DNA from: a virus
Lineage: Duplodnaviria > Heunggongvirae > Uroviricota > Caudoviricetes
Virus record (IMG/VR): IMGVR_UViG_2534681662_000012
Direction: 5' to 3' (one strand)
Length of the DNA: 6,205 bases
Numbering within the stretch: the first letter of the stretch is position 1; each line of letters opens with the position of its first letter. Shown here in pieces: positions 1 through 6,205 of the stretch. Under the pieces are notes generated by a model. That model ran no database searches, was not told the origin of the DNA, and was given only the letters and a program-made list of their open reading frames with translations. Made by a program: the position numbers and the translations under genes.

Positions 1-181
1 CTGCAATCACCTTTATCGCCAGCCTTCCGGACAGCCTTAATTTCAGCCGCTGCTGGCGAACAATAAGCGCCACAGCCCGGCGATAACGCTTTCCCTCCTC
101 AGAGATAAAATATGTGCTGCCACGGCGTCGCCAGTAGGTGTTCACCGTCGGCGGGTAAGGCAAAACAAACTCTATACGCAT
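1..181 (-). CDS. rusA: RusA-family Holliday junction resolvase, 5' part only (about 60 codons; gene continues past window start)
   Basis: Hand translation of the minus strand from ATG at 181..179 gives MRIEFVLPYPPTVNTYWRRRGSTYFISEEGKRYRRAVALIVRQQRLKLRLSGRLAIKVIA with no stop before position 1. This matches the RusA N-terminal pattern as I remember it (LPxPP-S/T-xNxY..R....-S/T-xEGxxYRxxV). SD AAGAGG (193..188) sits 6 nt upstream of the ATG, immediately after the TAA stop of the upstream ORF (196..194). Not in the ORF track because it has no in-window stop. Confidence 0.75.
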   Translation of the reverse strand, partial: MRIEFVLPYPPTVNTYWRRRGSTYFISEEGKRYRRAVALIVRQQRLKLRLSGRLAIKVIA

Positions 182-193
182 CAGTAACCTCTT

Positions 194-811
194 TTACCCA
201 AGCACGCCAGTTGCAAAGGCGTGATCAAGAAAACGAAAAATTAAATCAACCTGAGAACCATGCATTTCTTCGAACGCCAGCGGATCCGCATGAAGCTCGT
301 TGTGATGCTCCCGACACAGCGGTAGCGTGAAAATATCGTGAGATTTTGTCCCCATTCCGCCCTGACCATGACCAATCAGGTGATGGGGATCGTCGGCTGG
401 CTTACCACAACACGCACACGGCTGTGTCTTCACCCAGCGTGTGTATTTCTCGTTAACCCAGCGGCGACGTTTAGGTCGTTTCATGAAAGATTCCGGAGAC
501 TCCGGATCTACGGCAATGCTGACCACCGTCTTTTCCTGTGGTGCGTTCTGTTGCTGGTGGACGTGAGGCAGCGGCGCAAGATTTTTTGTGCGCTGTTTCA
601 GTATGCTGGTGGCGGTCTGCTCTCCCGGTACGATGTCGCTTTCGCGGTACACCGAGCGGATTTTTTCCGCACGCAAGCCCAGCGAACGACGTAATACCGC
701 TTCCGGTAGCGCGTCCGCCACCTGATTGCGGACCGCCCACCAGGATAATTCAGCCAGAGATAATTCACGCTCCTGCGTACCGCTTATTGCGTGACCGATG
801 ACGTCAATCAT
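194..811 (-). CDS. Cys/His-rich lambdoid-prophage protein, DUF968/YdfU-like C-terminal region (205 aa from the internal ATG)
   Basis: Track ORF 194..1021, trimmed to the internal ATG at 811..809 (MIDVIGHAISGTQERELS...). The upstream 70 codons (MLLVVLGHCLTGCCAILNPASGHTAIII...) are Cys/Thr/Ala-rich, look non-protein-like, and overlap a better frame. The C-terminal block WVKTQPCACCGKPADDPHHLIGHGQGGMGTKSHDIFTLPLCREHHNELH is a Cys/His metal-binding-type motif that I associate with the DUF968 family; this is recollection, not a search result. Stop TAA at 196..194. Confidence 0.6.
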   Translation of the reverse strand: MIDVIGHAISGTQERELSLAELSWWAVRNQVADALPEAVLRRSLGLRAEKIRSVYRESDIVPGEQTATSILKQRTKNLAPLPHVHQQQNAPQEKTVVSIAVDPESPESFMKRPKRRRWVNEKYTRWVKTQPCACCGKPADDPHHLIGHGQGGMGTKSHDIFTLPLCREHHNELHADPLAFEEMHGSQVDLIFRFLDHAFATGVLG

Positions 812-1241
812 CCATGCTGACAGTTTTGATGAGCAAGTTGCCGAGTGATTCGGATGTCTGGTCACGCAGCTGGTTGTCGCAGTGCCAGCACAACACCATT
901 GCGCCGGTACCATATCGGTGAATAACGGTTTCGCTGTGATGATAATCGCCGTGTGGCCACTGGCAGGATTTAATATGGCACAACAGCCAGTCAGACAGTG
1001 CCCCAGCACCACCAGCAGCACGAATCACCCGCTCATCGCTGAAAAATGGCAGTAATGATTTATCCTCCGCCAGCGGCTGGCGAACAGCAGGAACGACTCC
1101 GGACGGCAGACCGCGCATGCTTTTCGGTTCCGGCTCCACCAGAACTCGAGGGTTATGAAATACCTGCATGGATTCACGGCCCGGTTTTAGCACCACCAGC
1201 CCAAGTTCCGGTACCGGAACAGGTCGAAGTAACACCCGCAC
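804..1241 (-). CDS. Hypothetical Cys/His-rich prophage protein (145 aa); possibly the N-terminal part of a split YdfU-like gene
   Basis: Track ORF 804..1241. Start is GTG at 1241..1239, preceded by GGAGG (tctGGAGGtaacGTG on the minus strand) that overlaps the TAA stop of the upstream ORF at 1245..1243. The product ends ...CQWPHGDYHHSETVIHRYGTGAMVLCWHCDNQLRDQTSESLGNLLIKTVSMDD. Its TGA stop (806..804) overlaps the ATG of the next ORF (811..809), giving minus-strand ATGATTGA. Confidence 0.55.
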   Translation of the reverse strand: MRVLLRPVPVPELGLVVLKPGRESMQVFHNPRVLVEPEPKSMRGLPSGVVPAVRQPLAEDKSLLPFFSDERVIRAAGGAGALSDWLLCHIKSCQWPHGDYHHSETVIHRYGTGAMVLCWHCDNQLRDQTSESLGNLLIKTVSMDD

Positions 1242-1242
1242 G

Positions 1243-1521
1243 TTACCTCCAGATGCGTTGCTGGTATGTGCGGGATGAACGCGGTGGGCGTTCGGAGTAA
1301 GGGAGTCTGACTGAGATTATCCAGTGACGGTAGTCGAGGCTAAGAGCTTTCTTAACCTCGTATCCGCGCCTGCGGTAACACTGAATTATCCATTCCGCCT
1401 GCTCTTCAGTGCATGGAGGATGCTGGAACCAGTCTGATTTGAATGCGTGAAAACGCCGTCCGCACCTACTGGCAAAGACGGCAGAATCATTAGAATTGTG
1501 TAATTTGGTATCGTGCGCCAT
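1243..1521 (-). CDS. Small prophage protein (92 aa) in the position rem occupies in Qin-type prophages
   Basis: Track ORF 1243..1650, trimmed to the only internal ATG (1521..1519; MAHDTKLHNSNDSAVFASRCGRRF...). The track start at 1650 would put the hok terminator hairpin (1603..1620) inside the coding region. Upstream SD is weak. Function unknown; the rem analogy is positional only. Confidence 0.45.
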   Translation of the reverse strand: MAHDTKLHNSNDSAVFASRCGRRFHAFKSDWFQHPPCTEEQAEWIIQCYRRRGYEVKKALSLDYRHWIISVRLPYSERPPRSSRTYQQRIWR

Positions 1522-1590
1522 CGGTTGTCTCTGCTGGCGCAGCAGGTGCCAGTTGTTCAGGCTGGCGTGCGAATTGTAAACCAGAATGCC

Positions 1591-1620
1591 AGGAAAAAAC
1601 AAAACCCGCCGAAGCGGGTT
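1591..1620 (-). terminator. Rho-independent terminator downstream of hok
   Basis: Perfect 7-bp stem (1603-1609 aacccgc with 1614-1620 gcgggtt) and a 4-nt loop cgaa. On the minus strand the hairpin is followed by the U-rich tract UUUUGUUUUUUCC (complement of 1591-1602). It lies about 70 nt 3' of the hok stop. Confidence 0.6.
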
Positions 1621-1688
1621 ACGTGCGGGTGCGTTGAGGATGCCTGCCACATAAGAGGTGGCGAGGGATTTCTCCCTCGCCTGGTCTC

Positions 1689-1844
1689 TTACTCCTCAGG
1701 TTCGTAAGCTGTGAAGACAGCGACCTCCGTCTGGCCGGTTCGGATTCGTACCTCGCAGAGGTCTTTCCTCGTTACCAGTGCCGTCACTATGACGGTTAAA
1801 CAGATGACGATCAGGGCGATTAACATCGCCTTTTGCTGCTTCAT
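1689..1844 (-). CDS. hokD: Hok/Gef-family type I toxin, HokD/RelF-like (51 aa)
   Basis: The internal ATG (1844..1842) of track ORF 1689..1901 gives MKQQKAMLIALIVICLTVIVTALVTRKDLCEVRIRTGQTEVAVFTAYEPEE. I recognise this as the Hok family (single TM helix, then the conserved RKDLCEV.IRTGQTEVAVF block) and, from memory, as identical or near-identical to E. coli HokD (RelF). SD AAGGAG sits 9 nt upstream. The 19-codon in-frame N-terminal extension in the track ORF was not adopted. Confidence 0.85.
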   Translation of the reverse strand: MKQQKAMLIALIVICLTVIVTALVTRKDLCEVRIRTGQTEVAVFTAYEPEE

Positions 1845-2116
1845 AGCCTGCTTCTCCTTGCCTTTCGGCACGTAAGAGGCTAACCTACATGTGTCTAGCA
1901 TGAAATTGGCCTCAGATTAATGTTAAGCGTCTTGCAGGACGCGTAATGTTAACTGGGGCTTTTCTCTATCTGCCCTTGGTGTTCATGCCCGAGGCAGATA
2001 GCCTCAAGCACCCGCAGCCATTCTACTTAACTACCGTTACCTCGCCAATATGAAATCAGTCAGAAAGACGATCCATAAGAACAATAGCAAGATTTCTTAA
2101 TGGAGATGGATGTAAG

Positions 2117-3604
2117 CTAAATATTTTGGCTCGGTCTGCTTTCTATTAAATGCAACCTGTATTTTAAAGCATGATGTGTCCTAAACTCATTTTGTAGATT
2201 AATTTTTAAGTTAGGCAAACTACTTACGTATTCCCATCTACCTTGTTTTTTTTGTCCGATAAGTGAGTTATCAAACAGGAAGTTGATATATTGACGTATC
2301 ACCCCATCAGAAATACCTGCAAATTCATTACGGCACTTCTCGGAAAAATCATTAAAATCGAATGTTTCTACTTGGATAGTTTGAAGAACAGTTAGTAAGT
2401 TCTCAATTTCAGGGAATTGGTTGGACCATTCATCAATCACCTCATTGTACACACTTATAGATGCTTCACGGTCAGCTTCATAAAGCTCATTGGAAGTGTA
2501 AAGACCTGAGACATTATTTTTATGACATGCCCTAATTTTGTTGAAGTAGACAATAATATCCCTAGGCCTAAAGAAAGAACGGCGACATATATATTTAAAT
2601 GGAGGAGTCCCCTGCCTAACGAATGAAACCTCAAATACTTTCCCAGATCTGTCCTTTTCGTCATCTAATATGAGATCATTAGGTTTGTATTTCTTTATCC
2701 TCTCATAATACATATCGTTTAGATTATTTTCATTCCATGAGATTATGATAGCACTATCTTGCAATAATTTGTTTTTATCATTGAATTTCAAAGAATGATA
2801 AATATCCGTTCGTAGGAAGGGAATGACTTTTAATTTATCATTGAGGCGTTCATCAGATGCTATGTTTCTACAGACATTTAGCAGATTTATTAAAACCTTA
2901 CTATATTCTTCAATTTGCCCCTCTAGCCAGTTTTCGTCTAATTGGTCAAGGGCGATAATTATTTTTTCATTACCAATGTTATCTTTAAAAATTTTTTCAA
3001 AATACGTAAGCAACGTGAAAGCATTAGCTCTTAGCTTTTGCTTTAGCTGAGCATTCTCAGCAACTTCCTCTAACGAAATTTCACCTGCGTCCAATGATAC
3101 TTCATTAAGACCAGCACTGGGCCCTTTTATGGTTTTTAATCTGGTTATTTTTGAAAACAAAACCTCCCTAAGAGTTGGGTCGGGACTACCAAAGATAGTT
3201 TTGATATAATTATGTGCCCACGTTAGATCTTTGTTTAAAGTCTCTCCAGCATCATTTTTTATTTCAATAAGTTTAGATAATGCCTTAATATAAAAAAGAT
3301 ACATCCAACTTTTTTGATAAGCGGAAAGTTCTCCAGCCATTGCATCCTTGTAAAGTTGATGGGCTGGCCATGGATAGTCACTAAAATTTAGACATACTGA
3401 GTAAAACCCGTTGAGATTGGCTGGGTTTCCTCTTCTAAGGTGTTCATAAATGGCTGTTTTACCAGTACCTTTTCTTCCAAGAACCAACCAAGCCCTACTT
3501 TCAATAATATCCTTTATCGCCGGTAGCTTAAAAAAATAGGTCTGTAAGTCCCGATCTGTTTCTGCTGAAACTTGAAATTCTGGTAGCCAGTCTCTAATGT
3601 CCAC
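2117..3604 (-). CDS. P-loop NTPase, 495 aa, STAND/KAP-like motif pattern; AT-rich horizontally acquired gene; candidate phage-defence/abortive-infection protein
   Basis: Track ORF 2117..3604; an uninterrupted 495-codon frame in an otherwise AT-rich segment. Walker A WLVLGRKGTGKTAIYEHL near residue 40; Walker B-like IIALDQLDENW near residue 220 (hhhhD-x-hDE, as in STAND/NACHT-type NTPases; the roughly 175-aa A-to-B spacing is more like KAP-type). In-frame start is GTG at 3604..3602 with SD AAGAGGA about 4-5 nt upstream. G+C in hand-counted 60-bp lines is about 27-35%, against about 57% in a flanking backbone line. Confidence 0.85.
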   Translation of the reverse strand: MDIRDWLPEFQVSAETDRDLQTYFFKLPAIKDIIESRAWLVLGRKGTGKTAIYEHLRRGNPANLNGFYSVCLNFSDYPWPAHQLYKDAMAGELSAYQKSWMYLFYIKALSKLIEIKNDAGETLNKDLTWAHNYIKTIFGSPDPTLREVLFSKITRLKTIKGPSAGLNEVSLDAGEISLEEVAENAQLKQKLRANAFTLLTYFEKIFKDNIGNEKIIIALDQLDENWLEGQIEEYSKVLINLLNVCRNIASDERLNDKLKVIPFLRTDIYHSLKFNDKNKLLQDSAIIISWNENNLNDMYYERIKKYKPNDLILDDEKDRSGKVFEVSFVRQGTPPFKYICRRSFFRPRDIIVYFNKIRACHKNNVSGLYTSNELYEADREASISVYNEVIDEWSNQFPEIENLLTVLQTIQVETFDFNDFSEKCRNEFAGISDGVIRQYINFLFDNSLIGQKKQGRWEYVSSLPNLKINLQNEFRTHHALKYRLHLIESRPSQNI

Positions 3605-3921
3605 ATTTTCCTCTTTACATTACATTACCTTTATGTTTTTCCAAAATAAATCAAAGTCATATGGCGTATCAAGTTTTTTTGATTATTTATGAGCTCATAC
3701 TCAAAAAAATACTAAATCTAATTTATCTTACGTTAACTAAAGATTTCATATGTTAGTATGCTCAAGCAATGCTACTGCTGGAGTCTGATGATATCCGTTA
3801 TACACTAATTGCCACGCACACAAGCGACATCAGTTCATGGCACAAAGCAGACAACCACGCTACCTCTACCCTATGCCATGAAAATGTCAATTTACATCTT
3901 AACTAATGCACTTTAATCTCG

Positions 3922-4344
3922 TCACTTAAATAGATACCGAACATTTCCCTGATAAAACGACAATATGCGCTGCATAACTTCGCTCTTCTGGCACTCGCGA
4001 CAGATTATGTTTAGACGACTGTCGTAGCGACGTATTTCTCCATCAGGTAGTGACCAGATAAGGTCCGGATCAACCACAGCGGGTTTCTTCACCTTCGCCC
4101 TAGAGAGTTTTTTGCGGGCATTTTGCCAGTCCTTTCGTGCCTGTTCAGACGGGAATAACCCGTAGCCGGAGTTGTATACATAACCACTGGCAACCAGCTC
4201 TCTGGCAAGAATGCTCATCAGATATCTTGTCGCACCTGTTTTAGCTTCCAACTGTCGTAATGTCTCGCGACCGCTCTGGCGCACAAGTTCGACCACCTGC
4301 TCTTTAATTTTTTCCCGCTCTTCCTGTGTAAAAACTTTTGCCAC
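3922..4344 (-). CDS. Hypothetical prophage protein, 140 aa
   Basis: Track ORF 3922..4344. GTG start at 4344..4342 with a strong SD AAGGAGG 4 nt upstream (ttAAGGAGGacttGTG on the minus strand). Backbone-like G+C. The product (MAKVFTQEEREKIKEQVVELVRQSGRETLRQLEAKTGATRYLMSILARELVASGYV...) is basic and could contain an HTH, but I do not recognise a specific family. Confidence 0.65.
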   Translation of the reverse strand: MAKVFTQEEREKIKEQVVELVRQSGRETLRQLEAKTGATRYLMSILARELVASGYVYNSGYGLFPSEQARKDWQNARKKLSRAKVKKPAVVDPDLIWSLPDGEIRRYDSRLNIICRECQKSEVMQRILSFYQGNVRYLFK

Positions 4345-4384
4345 AAGTCCTCCTTAAAATTACCTCATGACCTGAAATCAACAC

Positions 4385-5350
4385 TTATCCCCTGAAACCA
4401 GGCGGAATTTCTGTATCCGGTTCAGAAATATGATTCACACAACGCTGTACAGGTGAACGTCCCAAGCGGATGACCAGTTCGTCCCATTTTTCGCGGAGTT
4501 TTGACGGGCTCATGATGTTTTTTACCCAGAATGGATCTCGCTGTACCCGACCAAACATTTCGCAAATTTGTCTGTGGCTTCTGCCATCCAGCATCCGCAT
4601 TGTGCGCACGTCATTGGCCCAGGCTGTCCAGTTAGGCTCTTTTGGTCGCATGATCTCTCCATCGTCGCTGGCAGCCTGTTCGTAAAGGTTCACGATCCGC
4701 CCCCAAATCCACTGCGCACACGCCAAATCCTCCCTGCTACCCCACTGGCGTTTTTTCGCACTAAACACAACCGCGTCGGGGTTCTGGGTTAAAAAATCCT
4801 GTTCAGCGGTCTGCGGGTCCGGTTGCGAAGCTTCCGGACGAAAAGTGTTTTTATTCTCTGTAGTAATCTCTGTTGTATTCTCTGTAAGATCATCAGGCCA
4901 TTTTGACCCGATGACATTGGGTCGTTTTGAACCAATGGAGCGTTTCATTTTGACCTCTTCCATCGTGTCATTTTGACCTGATGGAGCGGCGCATTTTGAA
5001 CCGATGGATTCGTTCAATTTGCCACCATCTAAAAGCTCGCTCCCATAGTTGATCGTGTAGAAATTGGTCATATCGCGCTTTGATTTATTGAGCTTTTCAC
5101 AACGCAAAAGCCCCAGCGTTTTCAGACTTGCAAACGCGCGCTTTAAAGTTGACTCTGACCAGAATGGGAACTGTTCCAGCCATTGTTCCGTTGTGTTGTA
5201 AATCCAGCGAACACCATCACATTCCATGCCGGAATTGGTATCTCTCAACCAGTAATGCAACTGCTGCAACACAATGGCTTCATTTAAGCCAATCTTCATC
5301 GCAAGCTGTGTGTTTATAACCAGTGGGCGTTCAGCAAAAAGAAGGCTCAT
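4385..5350 (-). CDS. Phage replication initiator (lambda O-like / replisome organiser) with an internal origin
   Basis: Track ORF 4385..5404. The track start at 5404 is TTG with no SD, so I prefer ATG at 5350..5348 (weak GGATGG SD), which overlaps the upstream ORF stop by about 20 nt; the start remains uncertain. The N-terminal region looks like a winged-helix DNA-binding domain; the middle is encoded by iteron repeats (repeated SIGSK / VIGSK peptide); the C-terminal domain is Trp-rich. An internal ori is the hallmark of O-type initiators. Confidence 0.7.
   Translation of the reverse strand: MSLLFAERPLVINTQLAMKIGLNEAIVLQQLHYWLRDTNSGMECDGVRWIYNTTEQWLEQFPFWSESTLKRAFASLKTLGLLRCEKLNKSKRDMTNFYTINYGSELLDGGKLNESIGSKCAAPSGQNDTMEEVKMKRSIGSKRPNVIGSKWPDDLTENTTEITTENKNTFRPEASQPDPQTAEQDFLTQNPDAVVFSAKKRQWGSREDLACAQWIWGRIVNLYEQAASDDGEIMRPKEPNWTAWANDVRTMRMLDGRSHRQICEMFGRVQRDPFWVKNIMSPSKLREKWDELVIRLGRSPVQRCVNHISEPDTEIPPGFRG
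4898..5012. repeat. Iteron array (putative prophage origin of replication) inside the initiator gene, with an adjacent A+T-rich short-repeat tract at 4841-4890
   Basis: Five direct repeats of about 18-20 bp with 23-24 bp periodicity. Plus-strand copies start near 4900 (attttgacccgatga), 4924 (gttttgaaccaatgga), 4948 (cattttgacctcttccatcg, degenerate), 4968 (cattttgacctgatggagcg) and 4992 (cattttgaaccgatggattcg); consensus CATTTTGA(C/A)C.GATGGA. Immediately downstream in gene orientation is the tract 4851-4888 with three copies of tctctgt(a/t) (ttattctctgtag, taatctctgtt, tattctctgtaag). Confidence 0.6.
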
Positions 5351-5852
5351 AATTCCATCCAGCTTTTTGTTGGTATTGCTGTCGATACGCAAGTTTGAAA
5401 GCAATTGCTTTTTCTATAAGTTCGTCAGTTTCACGATCCACTACGGCAGGATCAGCAAAAAGCAGTCCGGACTCCACCACATCGCCATATTCTTTGTTTA
5501 ACCCGGCGATCATGTACGTGATGCTTTTTCCGTCACTAATTTCACGATACAACCTGAAATCATTAATCCGGATAGCCTCCATAATTGCAGGCACTAGCGC
5601 CGTGAACTTTTCACGCTTATCCCTAGTGTCGATAGCCTTCCAGCGTTCGAATATCTTCACTCGATTAACGCCAAGCGCTCGCTGATCAACCGCGCCACCT
5701 TCATCTGTGACACGCTGAACATCGATGTTCGGGCGCTCTTTCAAAGCCCAGAATGCTTCAGTGATTAATATCGTCGCCTGCTCCTGTGTCATTCCTGGTC
5801 GACATATCCAGGCATCCAGAGCCTCACGAGCCTGTTCAGGAGTGATTTTCAT
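5331..5852 (-). CDS. Hypothetical prophage early-region protein, 173 aa
   Basis: Track ORF 5331..5852 with ATG start at 5852..5850 and backbone G+C. The product (MKITPEQAREALDAWICRPGMTQEQATILITEAFWALKERPNIDVQRV...) is not recognised by me. Its start lies 37 bp from the IS1 left end. Confidence 0.65.
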   Translation of the reverse strand: MKITPEQAREALDAWICRPGMTQEQATILITEAFWALKERPNIDVQRVTDEGGAVDQRALGVNRVKIFERWKAIDTRDKREKFTALVPAIMEAIRINDFRLYREISDGKSITYMIAGLNKEYGDVVESGLLFADPAVVDRETDELIEKAIAFKLAYRQQYQQKAGWNYEPSFC

Positions 5853-5889
5853 TGTTCAACCGCCCCGCCCGCTTCGTCTTACGATATTC

Positions 5890-5912
5890 GGTGATGCTGC
5901 CAACTTACTGAT
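5890..5912 (+). repeat. IS1 left terminal inverted repeat (about 23 bp)
   Basis: GGTGATGCTGCCAACTTACTGAT at 5890-5912 matches the IS1 terminal inverted repeat as I recall it. The other end and the target-site duplication lie outside the window. Confidence 0.85.
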
Positions 5913-5944
5913 TTAGTGTATGATGGTGTTTTTGAGGTGCTCCA

Positions 5945-6205
5945 GTGGCTTCTGTTTCTATCAGCTGTCCCTCCTGTTCAGCTACTGACGGGGTGGTGCG
6001 TAACGGCAAAAGCACTGCCGGACATCAGCGCTATCTCTGCTCTCACTGCCGTAAAACATGGCAACTGCAGTTCACTTACACCGCTTCTCAACCCGGTACG
6101 CACCAGAAAATCATTGATATGGCCATGAATGGCGTTGGATGCCGGGCAACAGCCCGCATTATGGGCGTTGGCCTCAACACGATTTTACGTCACTTAAAAA
6201 ACTCA
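5945..6205 (+). CDS. insA: IS1 InsA (N-terminal 87 codons; truncated by the window end)
   Basis: Hand translation from GTG at 5945 gives [87 protein letters not shown] with no stop before 6205, matching IS1 InsA (zinc-finger plus HTH). Not in the ORF track, which shows a different-frame ORF at 5916..6128. Confidence 0.9.

What the first reader, a model, noticed from the sequence alone, without database searches (positions are those of the whole stretch)
1689..3604. NTPase-hok tandem: the NTPase occupies the slot that relBE holds upstream of hokD in K-12 Qin
As I recall the K-12 Qin prophage, hokD (relF) is the third gene of the relBEF operon and is followed by rem and ydfU. Here hok, a rem-position ORF and a YdfU-like gene are present in the same order and orientation, but the sequence immediately upstream of hok is the AT-rich NTPase, with no RelE/RelB-like ORF. 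I found no convincing intrinsic terminator between the NTPase stop (2117) and the hok start (1844), so read-through transcription into hok is plausible. Two readings follow: (a) this is a variable cargo hotspot where toxin-antitoxin and defence genes swap; or (b) the NTPase and the Hok membrane toxin act together as a sensor plus effector abortive-infection pair. The second is speculative.
Basis: partly seen in the sequence, partly recalled or inferred. Interest (0 to 1): 0.7.

Follow-up and report, generated by a model that had tools for sequence, protein, structure and literature searches.

The report
ATPase cargo beside intact hok/sok
An uncharacterised ATPase gene sits next to the Hok toxin gene only because it landed in a swap-slot of an E. 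coli prophage where many different anti-phage genes are exchanged; the two genes are separate modules, not a working pair.

Summary
The tandem is real. A 495-aa Sll1717-family P-loop ATPase (3604..2117, minus strand) lies 272 nt upstream of a Hok identical to K-12 HokD (1844..1689), in a Qin-type lambdoid prophage.

That 272-nt spacer is not empty. It holds the full hok/sok control region:
- a promoter-like site (2048-2020)
- the leader (Rfam sok, 116.6 bits)
- a mok-position ORF
- an antisense Sok promoter and hairpin
- tac/fbi pairing and the only terminator (1620-1603)

K-12 lost all sequence upstream of 1858 when relBE integrated.

The ATPase sits on an AT-rich cassette (2093-3825, 34.5% GC against about 50%). 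This cassette fills a hypervariable slot between the DUF977 (Ren-like) gene and hok/sok. Roughly half of complete E. coli genomes appear to have these flanks, but only 41 of 5,426 carry the ATPase. Other occupants include Kiwa, an AbiU-like AIPR protein, a PD-T7-3-like protein, PDC-S39, QueH and methyltransferases, in both orientations.

ATPase orthologues (63-89% identity) in seven other genera lie in other prophage hotspots or defence islands. None has hok/sok within 5 kb.

Reading (a), a cargo hotspot, is supported. Reading (b), an NTPase-Hok sensor-effector pair, is not. The ATPase is a plausible new single-gene defence candidate.

The parts
3922..4344 (-). DUF977 / Ren-like gene, last gene of the replication module; conserved right anchor of the cargo slot
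   Evidence: Pfam DUF977 1.9e-28. PHROG 142 'Ren-like exclusion protein' 7e-44. Conserved next to different cargos.
3826..3921 (.). Conserved tail downstream of the DUF977 stop; right junctions of the slot fall at 3826-3843
   Evidence: Homology to L004, L005 and L006 resumes at 3826, 3838 and 3843. Pairwise junction comparison.
2093..3825 (-). AT-rich cargo cassette (34.5% GC) carrying the ATPase gene and its upstream region
   Evidence: Junctions against other genomes. GC content. Present in 41 of 5,426 E. coli genomes.
3643..3672 (-). Promoter-like site for the ATPase (TTGATA-18-TATTTT), inside the ~130 bp of upstream DNA that travels with the gene
   Evidence: Consensus scan, not above shuffled expectation. 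DNA similarity to the Proteus orthologue loci extends upstream to window 3729-3738. Function is inferred.
2117..3604 (-). Sll1717-family P-loop ATPase, 495 aa; GTG start with a GAGG Shine-Dalgarno. Walker A GRKGTGKT (residues 43-50), Walker B ALDQLDE (218-224). AAA+ (ORC/Cdc6-STAND-like) core with a C-terminal winged helix.
2056..2092 (-). 3' remnant (last 12 codons and stop) of a 29-aa hydrophobic small ORF. The ORF is intact in other genomes between the slot and the hok promoter. The cassette's left junction cuts it.
   Evidence: Alignment of left junctions. Translation VLVLKCALAIVAVMAIYCLAIILMDRLSD in L022.
2020..2048 (-). hok promoter-like site TTGGCG-17-TAGAAT; places the transcription start at about 2013
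   Evidence: The same hexamers occur at the same relative place in L021 and L004. The Rfam model starts at 2013. The start site is inferred.
1839..2013 (-). hok mRNA leader with the 5' tac element and the Sok target
   Evidence: Rfam RF01794 'sok' 116.6 bits (gathering 59), E 7e-27, full length.
1689..1901 (-). mok-position ORF: ATG at 1901, 57 nt upstream of and in frame with hok (70 codons)
   Evidence: PMC6379469 describes an ancestral hokD ORF of about 70 codons.
1689..1844 (-). hok (HokD), 51 aa membrane toxin
   Evidence: Pfam HOK_GEF 3e-23. 100% identical to K-12 HokD.
1858..1967 (+). Antisense sok: -35 TTGCCT (1858-1863), -10 TAACCT (1881-1886), RNA of about 1891-1967 with a single-stranded 5' tail, a long hairpin and a U-rich end
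   Evidence: Motif positions. Fold -30.6 kcal/mol, z -5.9. Expression not tested.
1627..1648 (-). fbi-like element complementary to the 5' tac of the hok mRNA
   Evidence: Local alignment and duplex -35.2 kcal/mol. The 5' end pairs with this region in the MFE fold of the 418-nt transcript.
1603..1620 (-). Intrinsic terminator of the hok transcript
   Evidence: AACCCGCTTCGGCGGGTT followed by a T-run.

Best explanation
The locus holds two independent modules that are neighbours by position, not by function.

Module 1 is a complete, self-contained hok/sok type I toxin-antitoxin unit (about 2048 to 1600, minus strand). It has its own promoter, the tac/fbi-regulated mRNA, a mok-position ORF, Hok and antisense Sok. 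This unit is a conserved landmark of Qin-type lambdoid prophages.

Module 2 is a 1.7-kb AT-rich cassette (2093-3825). It brings a single Sll1717-family AAA+ ATPase with about 130-220 bp of its own upstream DNA and no terminator. It occupies a hypervariable cargo slot between the last replication-module gene (DUF977, at the ren position) and hok/sok. Cargo is presumably exchanged by recombination in the conserved flanks; this step is inferred. In K-12 the same slot received relBE (with ydfV and flxA), and that event also deleted the hok leader.

The ATPase most likely acts alone as an ATP-dependent switch of the ORC/Cdc6-STAND type. Its winged-helix end would bind a phage-derived nucleic acid or protein, and it would oligomerise to block the invader directly. 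It would be expressed from its own promoter in the lysogen. The architecture is shown. The defence role rests on guilt by association. The mechanism is inference only.
For: hok/sok autonomy:
- Rfam sok/hok-leader model at 116.6 bits, full length.
- Promoter-like TTGGCG-17-TAGAAT at 2048-2020, conserved in other genomes.
- The 5' tac pairs with the 3' fbi in the MFE fold.
- Sok promoter and hairpin, z -5.9.
- The leader is present in about 1,385 genomes, only 41 of which have the ATPase.
- A related prophage locus, hokW-sokW, is an experimentally functional type I TA (PMC8621323).

Hotspot:
- A padded-query search sampled 60 of 4,840 matching records evenly. In 36 rows the hok leader and DUF977 were joined, with different cargos between them.
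- Annotated examples.
- PADLOC hits: KwaA 337 bits and KwaB 528 bits, AbiU 82, PD-T7-3 54, PDC-S39 343.
- Junctions vary (345, 380-404 and 630-665 nt from the hok stop). All lie upstream of the inferred hok start site at about 325 nt.
- K-12 is the exception, with its break at 1858 (PMC6379469).

ATPase as stand-alone mobile cargo:
- 34.5% GC.
- Orthologues at 63-89% identity across phyla.
- Serratia: in the P2 gpA-gpQ locus, which is the defence hotspot defined in PMC9122126.
- Klebsiella: in the tail-gene region of a P2-like prophage.
- Proteus: next to an integrase.
- Vibrio: at the end of a filamentous prophage.
- Sulfuricurvum: beside DarTG and TA genes.
- Tenacibaculum: beside GmrSD and R-M genes.
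- No conserved partner gene, and no hok or sok in 13 loci.
- 2,627 family representatives, mostly 470-500 aa. Rare fusions to EAD7, GT4-conflict and cold-shock domains.
Against: - No terminator is predicted between the ATPase stop and hok. The cassette removed a weak terminator-like hairpin that other genomes carry just upstream of the hok promoter. Read-through of ATPase transcripts into hok in this lineage is therefore not excluded.
- The ATPase has no recognisable effector domain, which leaves room for a trans-acting partner.
- It matches no validated PADLOC system, only PDC-M28C at 4e-5 over 90 residues. It is absent from 50,697 sequenced phage genomes. No paper found mentions it. Its defence role is unproven.
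- All promoter calls are consensus matches at or below shuffled expectation.
- The estimate that about half of genomes carry the flanks comes from even sampling of one search, not from a full count.
Confidence: 0.85

Rival explanations
1. The NTPase and Hok form a two-gene abortive-infection system. The ATPase senses infection and causes Hok to be made or released, for example through read-through transcription that outruns Sok. Hok then depolarises the membrane.
For: The genes are tandem and co-oriented with no predicted terminator between them. The ATPase lacks an effector domain. Distant relatives carry EAD7 adaptor domains, which implies that some family members signal to separate effectors. 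All 41 E. coli copies sit next to hok.
Against: - The 41 copies are one cassette lineage in one slot, at 99.8-99.9% identity, so they count as a single event.
- Orthologues in seven other genera and contexts never have hok or sok within 5 kb.
- hok has its own promoter and a complete Sok control circuit.
- About 1,340 genomes have the same hok leader with other cargo or none.
- Other cargos in the slot are transcribed away from hok.
Confidence: 0.04
2. The ATPase is a replication protein of this prophage, an AAA+ initiator or helicase-loader at the lambda P position, and not accessory cargo.
For: It lies just after the O-like and DUF977 genes. Its fold resembles Cdc6/ORC, DnaA, MuB and TnsC.
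Against: - Only 41 of an estimated 2,900 records with the same replication-module flank carry it.
- Its GC content is foreign.
- Orthologues sit in P2-like prophages that have their own gpA, next to an integrase, at a filamentous prophage and in chromosomal islands.
- It is absent from 50,697 phage genomes.
Confidence: 0.03
3. The hotspot reading holds, but the ATPase is not an anti-phage gene. It could be a selfish, regulatory or otherwise host-directed cargo, or a decaying passenger.
For: It matches no validated defence family. The slot also carries non-defence-looking cargo such as QueH, an alpha/beta hydrolase and DUF551/DUF4014 genes. Two E. coli strains carry it disrupted by IS3.
Against: - It recurs in recognised defence hotspots and islands in unrelated taxa.
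- It has a STAND/ORC-like fold typical of immune ATPases.
- Relatives are fused to conflict-system domains.
- Conservation is strong, at 73% mean column identity with all catalytic motifs invariant, which argues for a selected function.
Confidence: 0.3

Closest known systems
hok/sok of plasmid R1 and hokW-sokW of prophage Sp5 (type I toxin-antitoxin)
   Same: Hok/Gef toxin, an upstream mok-position ORF, antisense Sok with its promoter overlapping the hok start region, 5' tac / 3' fbi pairing and a terminal hairpin. Like hokW-sokW it lies in a lambdoid prophage (PMC8621323).
   Different: Here the mok-position ATG is in frame with hok, giving a 70-codon ORF. From memory, mok in R1 is in another frame; this was not checked with tools. 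No expression or toxicity data exist for this locus.
relBEF (relB-relE-hokD) of K-12 Qin
   Same: Same prophage type and chromosomal site, identical HokD protein, same downstream DUF968 gene.
   Different: No relB or relE here. K-12 lacks everything upstream of window 1858 (leader, mok, sok -10 element, hok promoter), as well as DUF977 and the O-like gene. The window represents the intact, ancestral-type hokD locus, and K-12 is the derived state (PMC6379469).
P2 gpA-gpQ (old/tin) and P4 defence hotspots (Rousset et al. 2022, PMC9122126)
   Same: Conserved phage flanks enclose highly variable cargo enriched in anti-phage systems. The same ATPase family occupies the P2 gpA-portal locus in Serratia.
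   Different: A different phage family and position: a lambdoid prophage, between the ren-position gene and hok/sok. This particular slot was not found described in the searched literature.
STAND / ORC-Cdc6-type immune ATPases (Avs, BrxC, RdrA, NLRs) and archaeal AAA+ SSO1545/PAB2304
   Different: Much smaller at 495 aa, with no sensor repeats and no effector domain. Sequence similarity to any of these is negligible: no PDB sequence hit and no Pfam hit above threshold.

Membership tests
hok/sok type I toxin-antitoxin locus | Hok/Gef-family small membrane toxin ORF | tested here: met
   PF01848 3e-23, full model 1-42. Identical to K-12 HokD.
hok/sok type I toxin-antitoxin locus | Conserved structured leader with an overlapping upstream (mok) reading frame | tested here: met
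   RF01794 116.6 bits against gathering 59. ATG at 1901 opens a 70-codon ORF over hok.
hok/sok type I toxin-antitoxin locus | Antisense Sok RNA gene (promoter, single-stranded 5' tail, terminator hairpin) | tested here: met
   TTGCCT-17-TAACCT at 1858-1886 (+). The 80-nt fold scores -30.6 kcal/mol, z -5.9. This is sequence-level evidence only.
hok/sok type I toxin-antitoxin locus | Long-range 5' tac / 3' fbi pairing in the full-length mRNA | tested here: met
   Duplex -35.2 kcal/mol. The pairing is present in the MFE of the 418-nt transcript.
hok/sok type I toxin-antitoxin locus | Toxicity of Hok and neutralisation by Sok | not testable with these tools
   Needs expression assays. Shown for the related hokW-sokW (PMC8621323).
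P-loop ATPase, Sll1717 family (NCBIfam NF047389) | Full-length match above the curated cutoff | tested here: met
   250.8 bits against cutoff 75, covering residues 13-484 and profile positions 5-454 of 454.
P-loop ATPase, Sll1717 family (NCBIfam NF047389) | Intact Walker A and Walker B motifs | tested here: met
   G43, R44, K45, G46, G48, K49, T50 and D220-E224 are invariant in 30 homologues.
Two-gene sensor-effector abortive-infection system (NTPase + Hok) | Conserved co-occurrence of the two genes across independent lineages | tested here: not met
   None of 13 orthologue loci from 7 genera has hok or sok. The hok leader occurs without the ATPase in about 1,340 genomes.
Two-gene sensor-effector abortive-infection system (NTPase + Hok) | Single transcription unit | tested here: inconclusive
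   No terminator is predicted between the genes, but hok has its own conserved promoter-like site and a leader that starts at about 2013.
relBEF operon | RelB antitoxin and RelE toxin ORFs upstream of hokD | tested here: not met
   No such ORFs or Pfam hits in the window. K-12 homology ends at 1858.
Prophage defence/cargo hotspot | Conserved flanks enclosing many different gene sets | tested here: met
   At least 12 distinct cargos between DUF977 and the hok leader.
Prophage defence/cargo hotspot | Cargo includes known anti-phage systems | tested here: met
   Kiwa KwaA and KwaB, AbiU-like, PD-T7-3-like and PDC-S39.
Validated anti-phage defence system (for the ATPase) | Match to a known defence family, or a demonstrated phage-resistance phenotype | tested here: not met
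   PADLOC gives only PDC-M28C at 4e-5 over residues 212-304. The phenotype cannot be tested here.

The most novel reading that the evidence does not exclude
The Sll1717-family ATPase is a previously unrecognised single-gene anti-phage system with no effector domain. It would be a minimal ORC/Cdc6-STAND-like ATP switch with a winged helix that interferes with the invader directly. It travels between defence hotspots of lambdoid, P2-like and filamentous prophages across phyla. In addition, the DUF977-hok/sok slot would be a major, so far undescribed lambdoid defence hotspot present in roughly half of E. coli genomes.
Probability: 0.45. Interest if true: 0.55.

Novelty: new member of a known kind. 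Interest (0 to 1): 0.38.

Why it matters
- It corrects a tempting inference. The textbook relBEF arrangement of K-12 is a derived, leader-less state of hokD, whereas this window shows the intact hok/sok unit. Adjacency to hok therefore says nothing about a partnership.
- It points to a practical resource. This lambdoid-prophage slot is easy to find by its flanks, already contains Kiwa and Abi-like genes, and also holds many unannotated genes. It could be mined for new defence systems in the way the P2 and P4 hotspots were.
- It nominates one concrete candidate. The ATPase is small, unusually conserved and widely transferred, and no function has been assigned to it.

Tried and rejected
- Pfam gave no family for the ATPase. 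At relaxed thresholds only sub-cutoff AAA_16 and ORC-CDC6-like hits appeared.
- The PDB sequence search gave nothing meaningful.
- Foldseek against viral structures gave TM-scores of 0.35 or less.
- The afdb50 library was unavailable.
- tblastn against 50,697 phage genomes found no match. Plasmids gave only relatives at 27-33% identity.
- Literature searches for 'Sll1717' and for WP_000354584 returned nothing. 'lambdoid' with 'DUF977' returned nothing. The 'nin region' search gave nothing relevant.
- Brenes & Laub 2025, on E. coli prophage defence systems, is not held, so I could not check whether it already covers this slot or gene.
- The Rfam isrK hit at 1599-1680 (27.9 bits against gathering 50) is sub-threshold. 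It covers the hok 3' stem-loops and terminator, and I rejected it as an sRNA call.
- I considered that the ATPase might be the phage's helicase loader or initiator. I rejected this on distribution and composition (see the rival explanations).
- I looked for small hydrophobic toxin ORFs next to the orthologues as functional stand-ins for Hok. None is conserved.
Full report
**What is in the window.** All real genes lie on the minus strand. Read 5' to 3' on that strand they are:
- a YdaT-family gene (5852..5331)
- an O-like replication gene (5404..4385)
- a DUF977 gene (4344..3922)
- a 317-nt AT-rich gap
- a 495-aa ORF (3604..2117)
- hok (1844..1689)
- a 92-aa phrog_1212 gene (about 1521..1243)
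- a DUF968/YdfU-like gene (1241..194)

Family assignments come from Pfam, NCBIfam and PHROGs. DUF977 corresponds to PHROG 142, 'Ren-like exclusion protein'. It therefore sits where ren sits in lambda, at the end of the replication module.

**Origin of the window.** Megablast against 5,426 complete E. coli genomes shows a Qin-type lambdoid prophage. The best relatives cover window 1-5890 at about 98% identity (1595-5890 at 99.9%) and are integrated at the rspB/ynfA site, like Qin.

K-12 Qin does read ydfU-rem-hokD-relE-relB on one strand. The Hok encoded here is 51/51 identical to K-12 HokD.
- The 'rem-position ORF' is not Rem. rem is missing: 56 bp (1539-1594) replace the 422 bp that include rem in strain 101EVA. 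The same rem-less layout occurs in HUSEC2011.
- The YdfU-like gene is split into two overlapping ORFs. The span is 1048 nt, which is 1 mod 3.

**The spacer is the hok/sok control region.** The simple scan does find no terminator there, but the interval is far from empty.
- Rfam's sok model, which covers the hok leader strand, matches 2013..1839 full length at 116.6 bits (gathering 59).
- A promoter-like TTGGCG-17-TAGAAT sits at 2048-2020. This places the start site at about 2013, exactly where the leader model begins. The same hexamers recur at the same relative place in other genomes.
- The inferred 418-nt transcript ends at the only predicted terminator (1620-1603).
- In its minimum-energy fold, the 5' GGGUGCUUGAGG pairs with CCUCAACGCACCC near the 3' end. 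This is the tac/fbi arrangement of hok mRNAs.
- An ATG at 1901 opens a 70-codon ORF over hok, at the mok position.
- On the plus strand, TTGCCT-17-TAACCT (1858-1886) precedes an RNA with a free 5' tail, a long hairpin and a U-rich end (z -5.9). This is the Sok architecture.

hok here is therefore a complete, autonomous type I TA unit. A related prophage locus, hokW-sokW of Sp5, has been shown to work as one (PMC8621323).

**K-12 is the derived state.** Homology between the window and K-12 stops at 1858, 14 nt upstream of the hok ATG and at the sok -35 element. K-12 therefore lacks the hok promoter, the leader, mok and most of sok. Ramisetty and Sudhakari state that relBE integration shortened an ancestral hokD ORF of about 70 codons to 51 (PMC6379469). 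The NTPase 'holds the relBE slot' positionally, but the relBE event also destroyed hok regulation. The NTPase cassette did not.

**The ATPase rides on a cassette in a hypervariable slot.**
- A search with window 2000-3950 found the ATPase in only 41 genomes. About 1,340 further genomes matched only 2000-2092 (or 2000-2078), which is the hok promoter side.
- Alignment to three such genomes sets the junctions at 2092/2093 (or 2078) and at 3826-3843.
- The enclosed 1,733 bp are 34.5% GC, against 51-53% on the left and 48% on the right.
- To see what else occupies the interval, I built a query from the hok leader (1859-2092), 11 kb of random padding and DUF977 (3922-4344). The padding lets the tool join the two anchors across gaps of up to about 6 kb.
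- Of 60 rows sampled evenly from 4,840 matching records, 36 had both anchors joined. This suggests about 2,900 records, or roughly half of the genomes. It is an estimate from sampling, not a count.

The cargos between the anchors differ from genome to genome: DUF4209; an AIPR-family gene; QueH with or without a methyltransferase; DUF4145 with other genes; an integrase-bearing islet; a SAM methyltransferase with DUF7167; an alpha/beta hydrolase (O157:H7); KwaB-like with QueH; an ATP-binding protein with a STAS-like protein; DUF551/DUF4014; a SMEK-domain protein; and several hypotheticals.

PADLOC models identify a complete Kiwa system (KwaA 337 bits, KwaB 528 bits), an AbiU-like protein (82 bits), a PD-T7-3-like protein (54 bits), PDC-S39 (343 bits) and an Argonaute-associated N-terminal domain in the SMEK protein.

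Cargo genes occur in both orientations. DUF4209 and the hydrolase point away from hok. Left junctions fall at 345, 380-404 or 630-665 nt from the hok stop. All are upstream of the inferred hok start site at about 325 nt. Reading (a) is therefore well supported.

**The ATPase outside E. coli.** The protein has orthologues at 63-89% identity in Klebsiella, Proteus, Serratia, Vibrio cholerae, Enterobacter, Nitrosomonas, Methylococcaceae, Shewanella, Marinobacter, Sulfuricurvum, Arcobacteraceae, Bdellovibrionaceae and Tenacibaculum. Almost all are 493-497 aa. Their contexts are as follows.
- Klebsiella: within the tail-gene region of a P2-like prophage.
- Proteus: immediately after a prophage integrase.
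- Vibrio: at the end of an integrated filamentous phage.
- Serratia: between gpA and the Ogr/portal genes of a P2-like prophage. This is the gpA-gpQ defence hotspot defined by Rousset et al. (PMC9122126).
- Enterobacter: a small island with a TacAT-like TA pair.
- Sulfuricurvum: beside RhuM, RelB/YafQ and DarTG.
- Tenacibaculum: beside an LRR protein, an R-M methylase and GmrSD.

No neighbour is conserved. tblastn with Hok, blastn with the hok locus and the Rfam scan found no hok or sok in any of the 13 loci. No small hydrophobic stand-in is conserved either. DNA similarity to the Proteus copy runs from about 130 bp upstream of the start to 11 bp past the stop. The gene therefore travels with a short upstream region, which contains the TTGATA-18-TATTTT site at 3672-3643, and without a terminator. 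The 41 E. coli copies are 99.8-99.9% identical in one context and count as a single acquisition. Reading (b) fails its key test, conserved co-occurrence.

**What the ATPase looks like.**
- Walker A (GRKGTGKT, residues 43-50) and Walker B (ALDQLDE, 218-224) are invariant. So are an RRSFFRPRD stretch and a GQKKQGRWEY hairpin near the C-terminus. Mean column identity is 73% over 30 sequences.
- The AlphaFold model has pLDDT 79 and pTM 0.78.
- A profile search of 1.84 billion representatives finds 2,627 relatives, mostly of the same size. The few longer ones carry EAD7, a conflict-system GT4 glycosyltransferase or an N-terminal cold-shock domain.
- It matches no validated defence model, only PDC-M28C weakly.

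**Inferred role of the ATPase.** I infer, and have not shown, that it is an ATP-gated switch acting alone, probably by binding and oligomerising on a phage-derived nucleic acid or protein. I put the chance that it is a genuine anti-phage gene at about one half.

**Read-through.**
- The cassette lacks a terminator. It also removed part of a 29-aa small ORF that, in other genomes, carries a weak terminator-like hairpin just upstream of the hok promoter. Transcripts from the ATPase promoter may therefore run into hok.
- A 5'-extended transcript would still contain tac, fbi and the Sok target, so this need not change Hok control. That point is an inference from the known hok/sok mechanism.
- The right end of the window (5891-6205) is the left end of an IS1 inserted in the Cro/CI-family gene (compare). 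The prophage's early rightward operon is thus cut off from its promoter, and the ATPase and hok must rely on their own promoters.

**Verdict.** Reading (a) is supported and reading (b) is not. What remains of interest is the hotspot itself and the ATPase as a candidate single-gene defence.

Noticed in passing
window 5891-6205: This is the left end of an IS1 element (inverted repeat GGTGATGCTGCCAACTTACTG... starting at 5891; 98.4% identical to IS1B in L003). It is inserted in the Cro/CI-family gene, of which only the last ~55 nt remain. It explains the 85,820 'places' reported. It also disconnects the early-right promoter from ydaT-O-DUF977-slot-hok.
   Followed up: partly
window 194-1241: The DUF968/YdfU-like gene is split into two overlapping ORFs (1241..804 and 1021..194). 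The span is 1048 nt, which is 1 mod 3, so there is either a frameshift (pseudogene) or a sequencing error. Relatives have one 349-aa ORF.
   Followed up: partly
window 1539-1594: rem is absent: 56 bp stand in place of 422 bp that include rem in strain 101EVA. The same rem-less layout is present in HUSEC2011 (L006), so the window is a mosaic of two prophage variants.
   Followed up: partly
window 2056-2092; intact copies at L022 585-674 and in L004, L005, L020, L021: A 29-aa hydrophobic small ORF (VLVLKCALAIVAVMAIYCLAIILMDRLSD) lies between the cargo slot and the hok promoter in many genomes. It contains a weak terminator-like hairpin. In the window only its last 12 codons survive. Its function is unknown; it could be a small membrane protein.
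   Followed up: partly
NZ_CP041433.1 (STEC313) and NZ_CP041429.1 (STEC367), hits H3, H12 and H31: In two raw-meat STEC isolates the ATPase gene is interrupted by an IS3-family element and is annotated as two ATPase fragments.
   Followed up: no
L023 (NZ_CP163448.1) 1-3908: A complete Kiwa system (KwaA and KwaB) plus QueH occupies the slot. No hokD is annotated there, and a truncated ISNCY transposase fragment lies at the hok-side end of the stretch.
   Followed up: partly
ATPase homologues P0010-P0120: Sequence conservation is unusually high for a mobile accessory gene: 63-71% identity between E. coli, Vibrio, Nitrosomonas, Sulfuricurvum (Campylobacterota), Bdellovibrionaceae and Tenacibaculum (Bacteroidota). 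This implies recent wide horizontal transfer, very strong constraint, or both.
   Followed up: partly
P0173, P0187, P0230, P0233 (remote family members): Rare fusions of the ATPase core to EAD7 (an effector-associated adaptor), to a conflict-system GT4 glycosyltransferase and to N-terminal cold-shock domains.
   Followed up: partly
window 1599-1680 (-): Sub-threshold Rfam hit to isrK (27.9 bits against gathering 50) over the hok 3' stem-loop and terminator. It probably reflects only the two hairpins.
   Followed up: no
L024 (NZ_CP151934.1) 784-2741: A three-gene cargo (376-aa ATP-binding protein, 104-aa STAS-like protein, 172-aa hypothetical) sits in the same slot with no PADLOC match. Its left junction at about 345 nt from the hok stop replaces the hok -35 region.
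   Followed up: no
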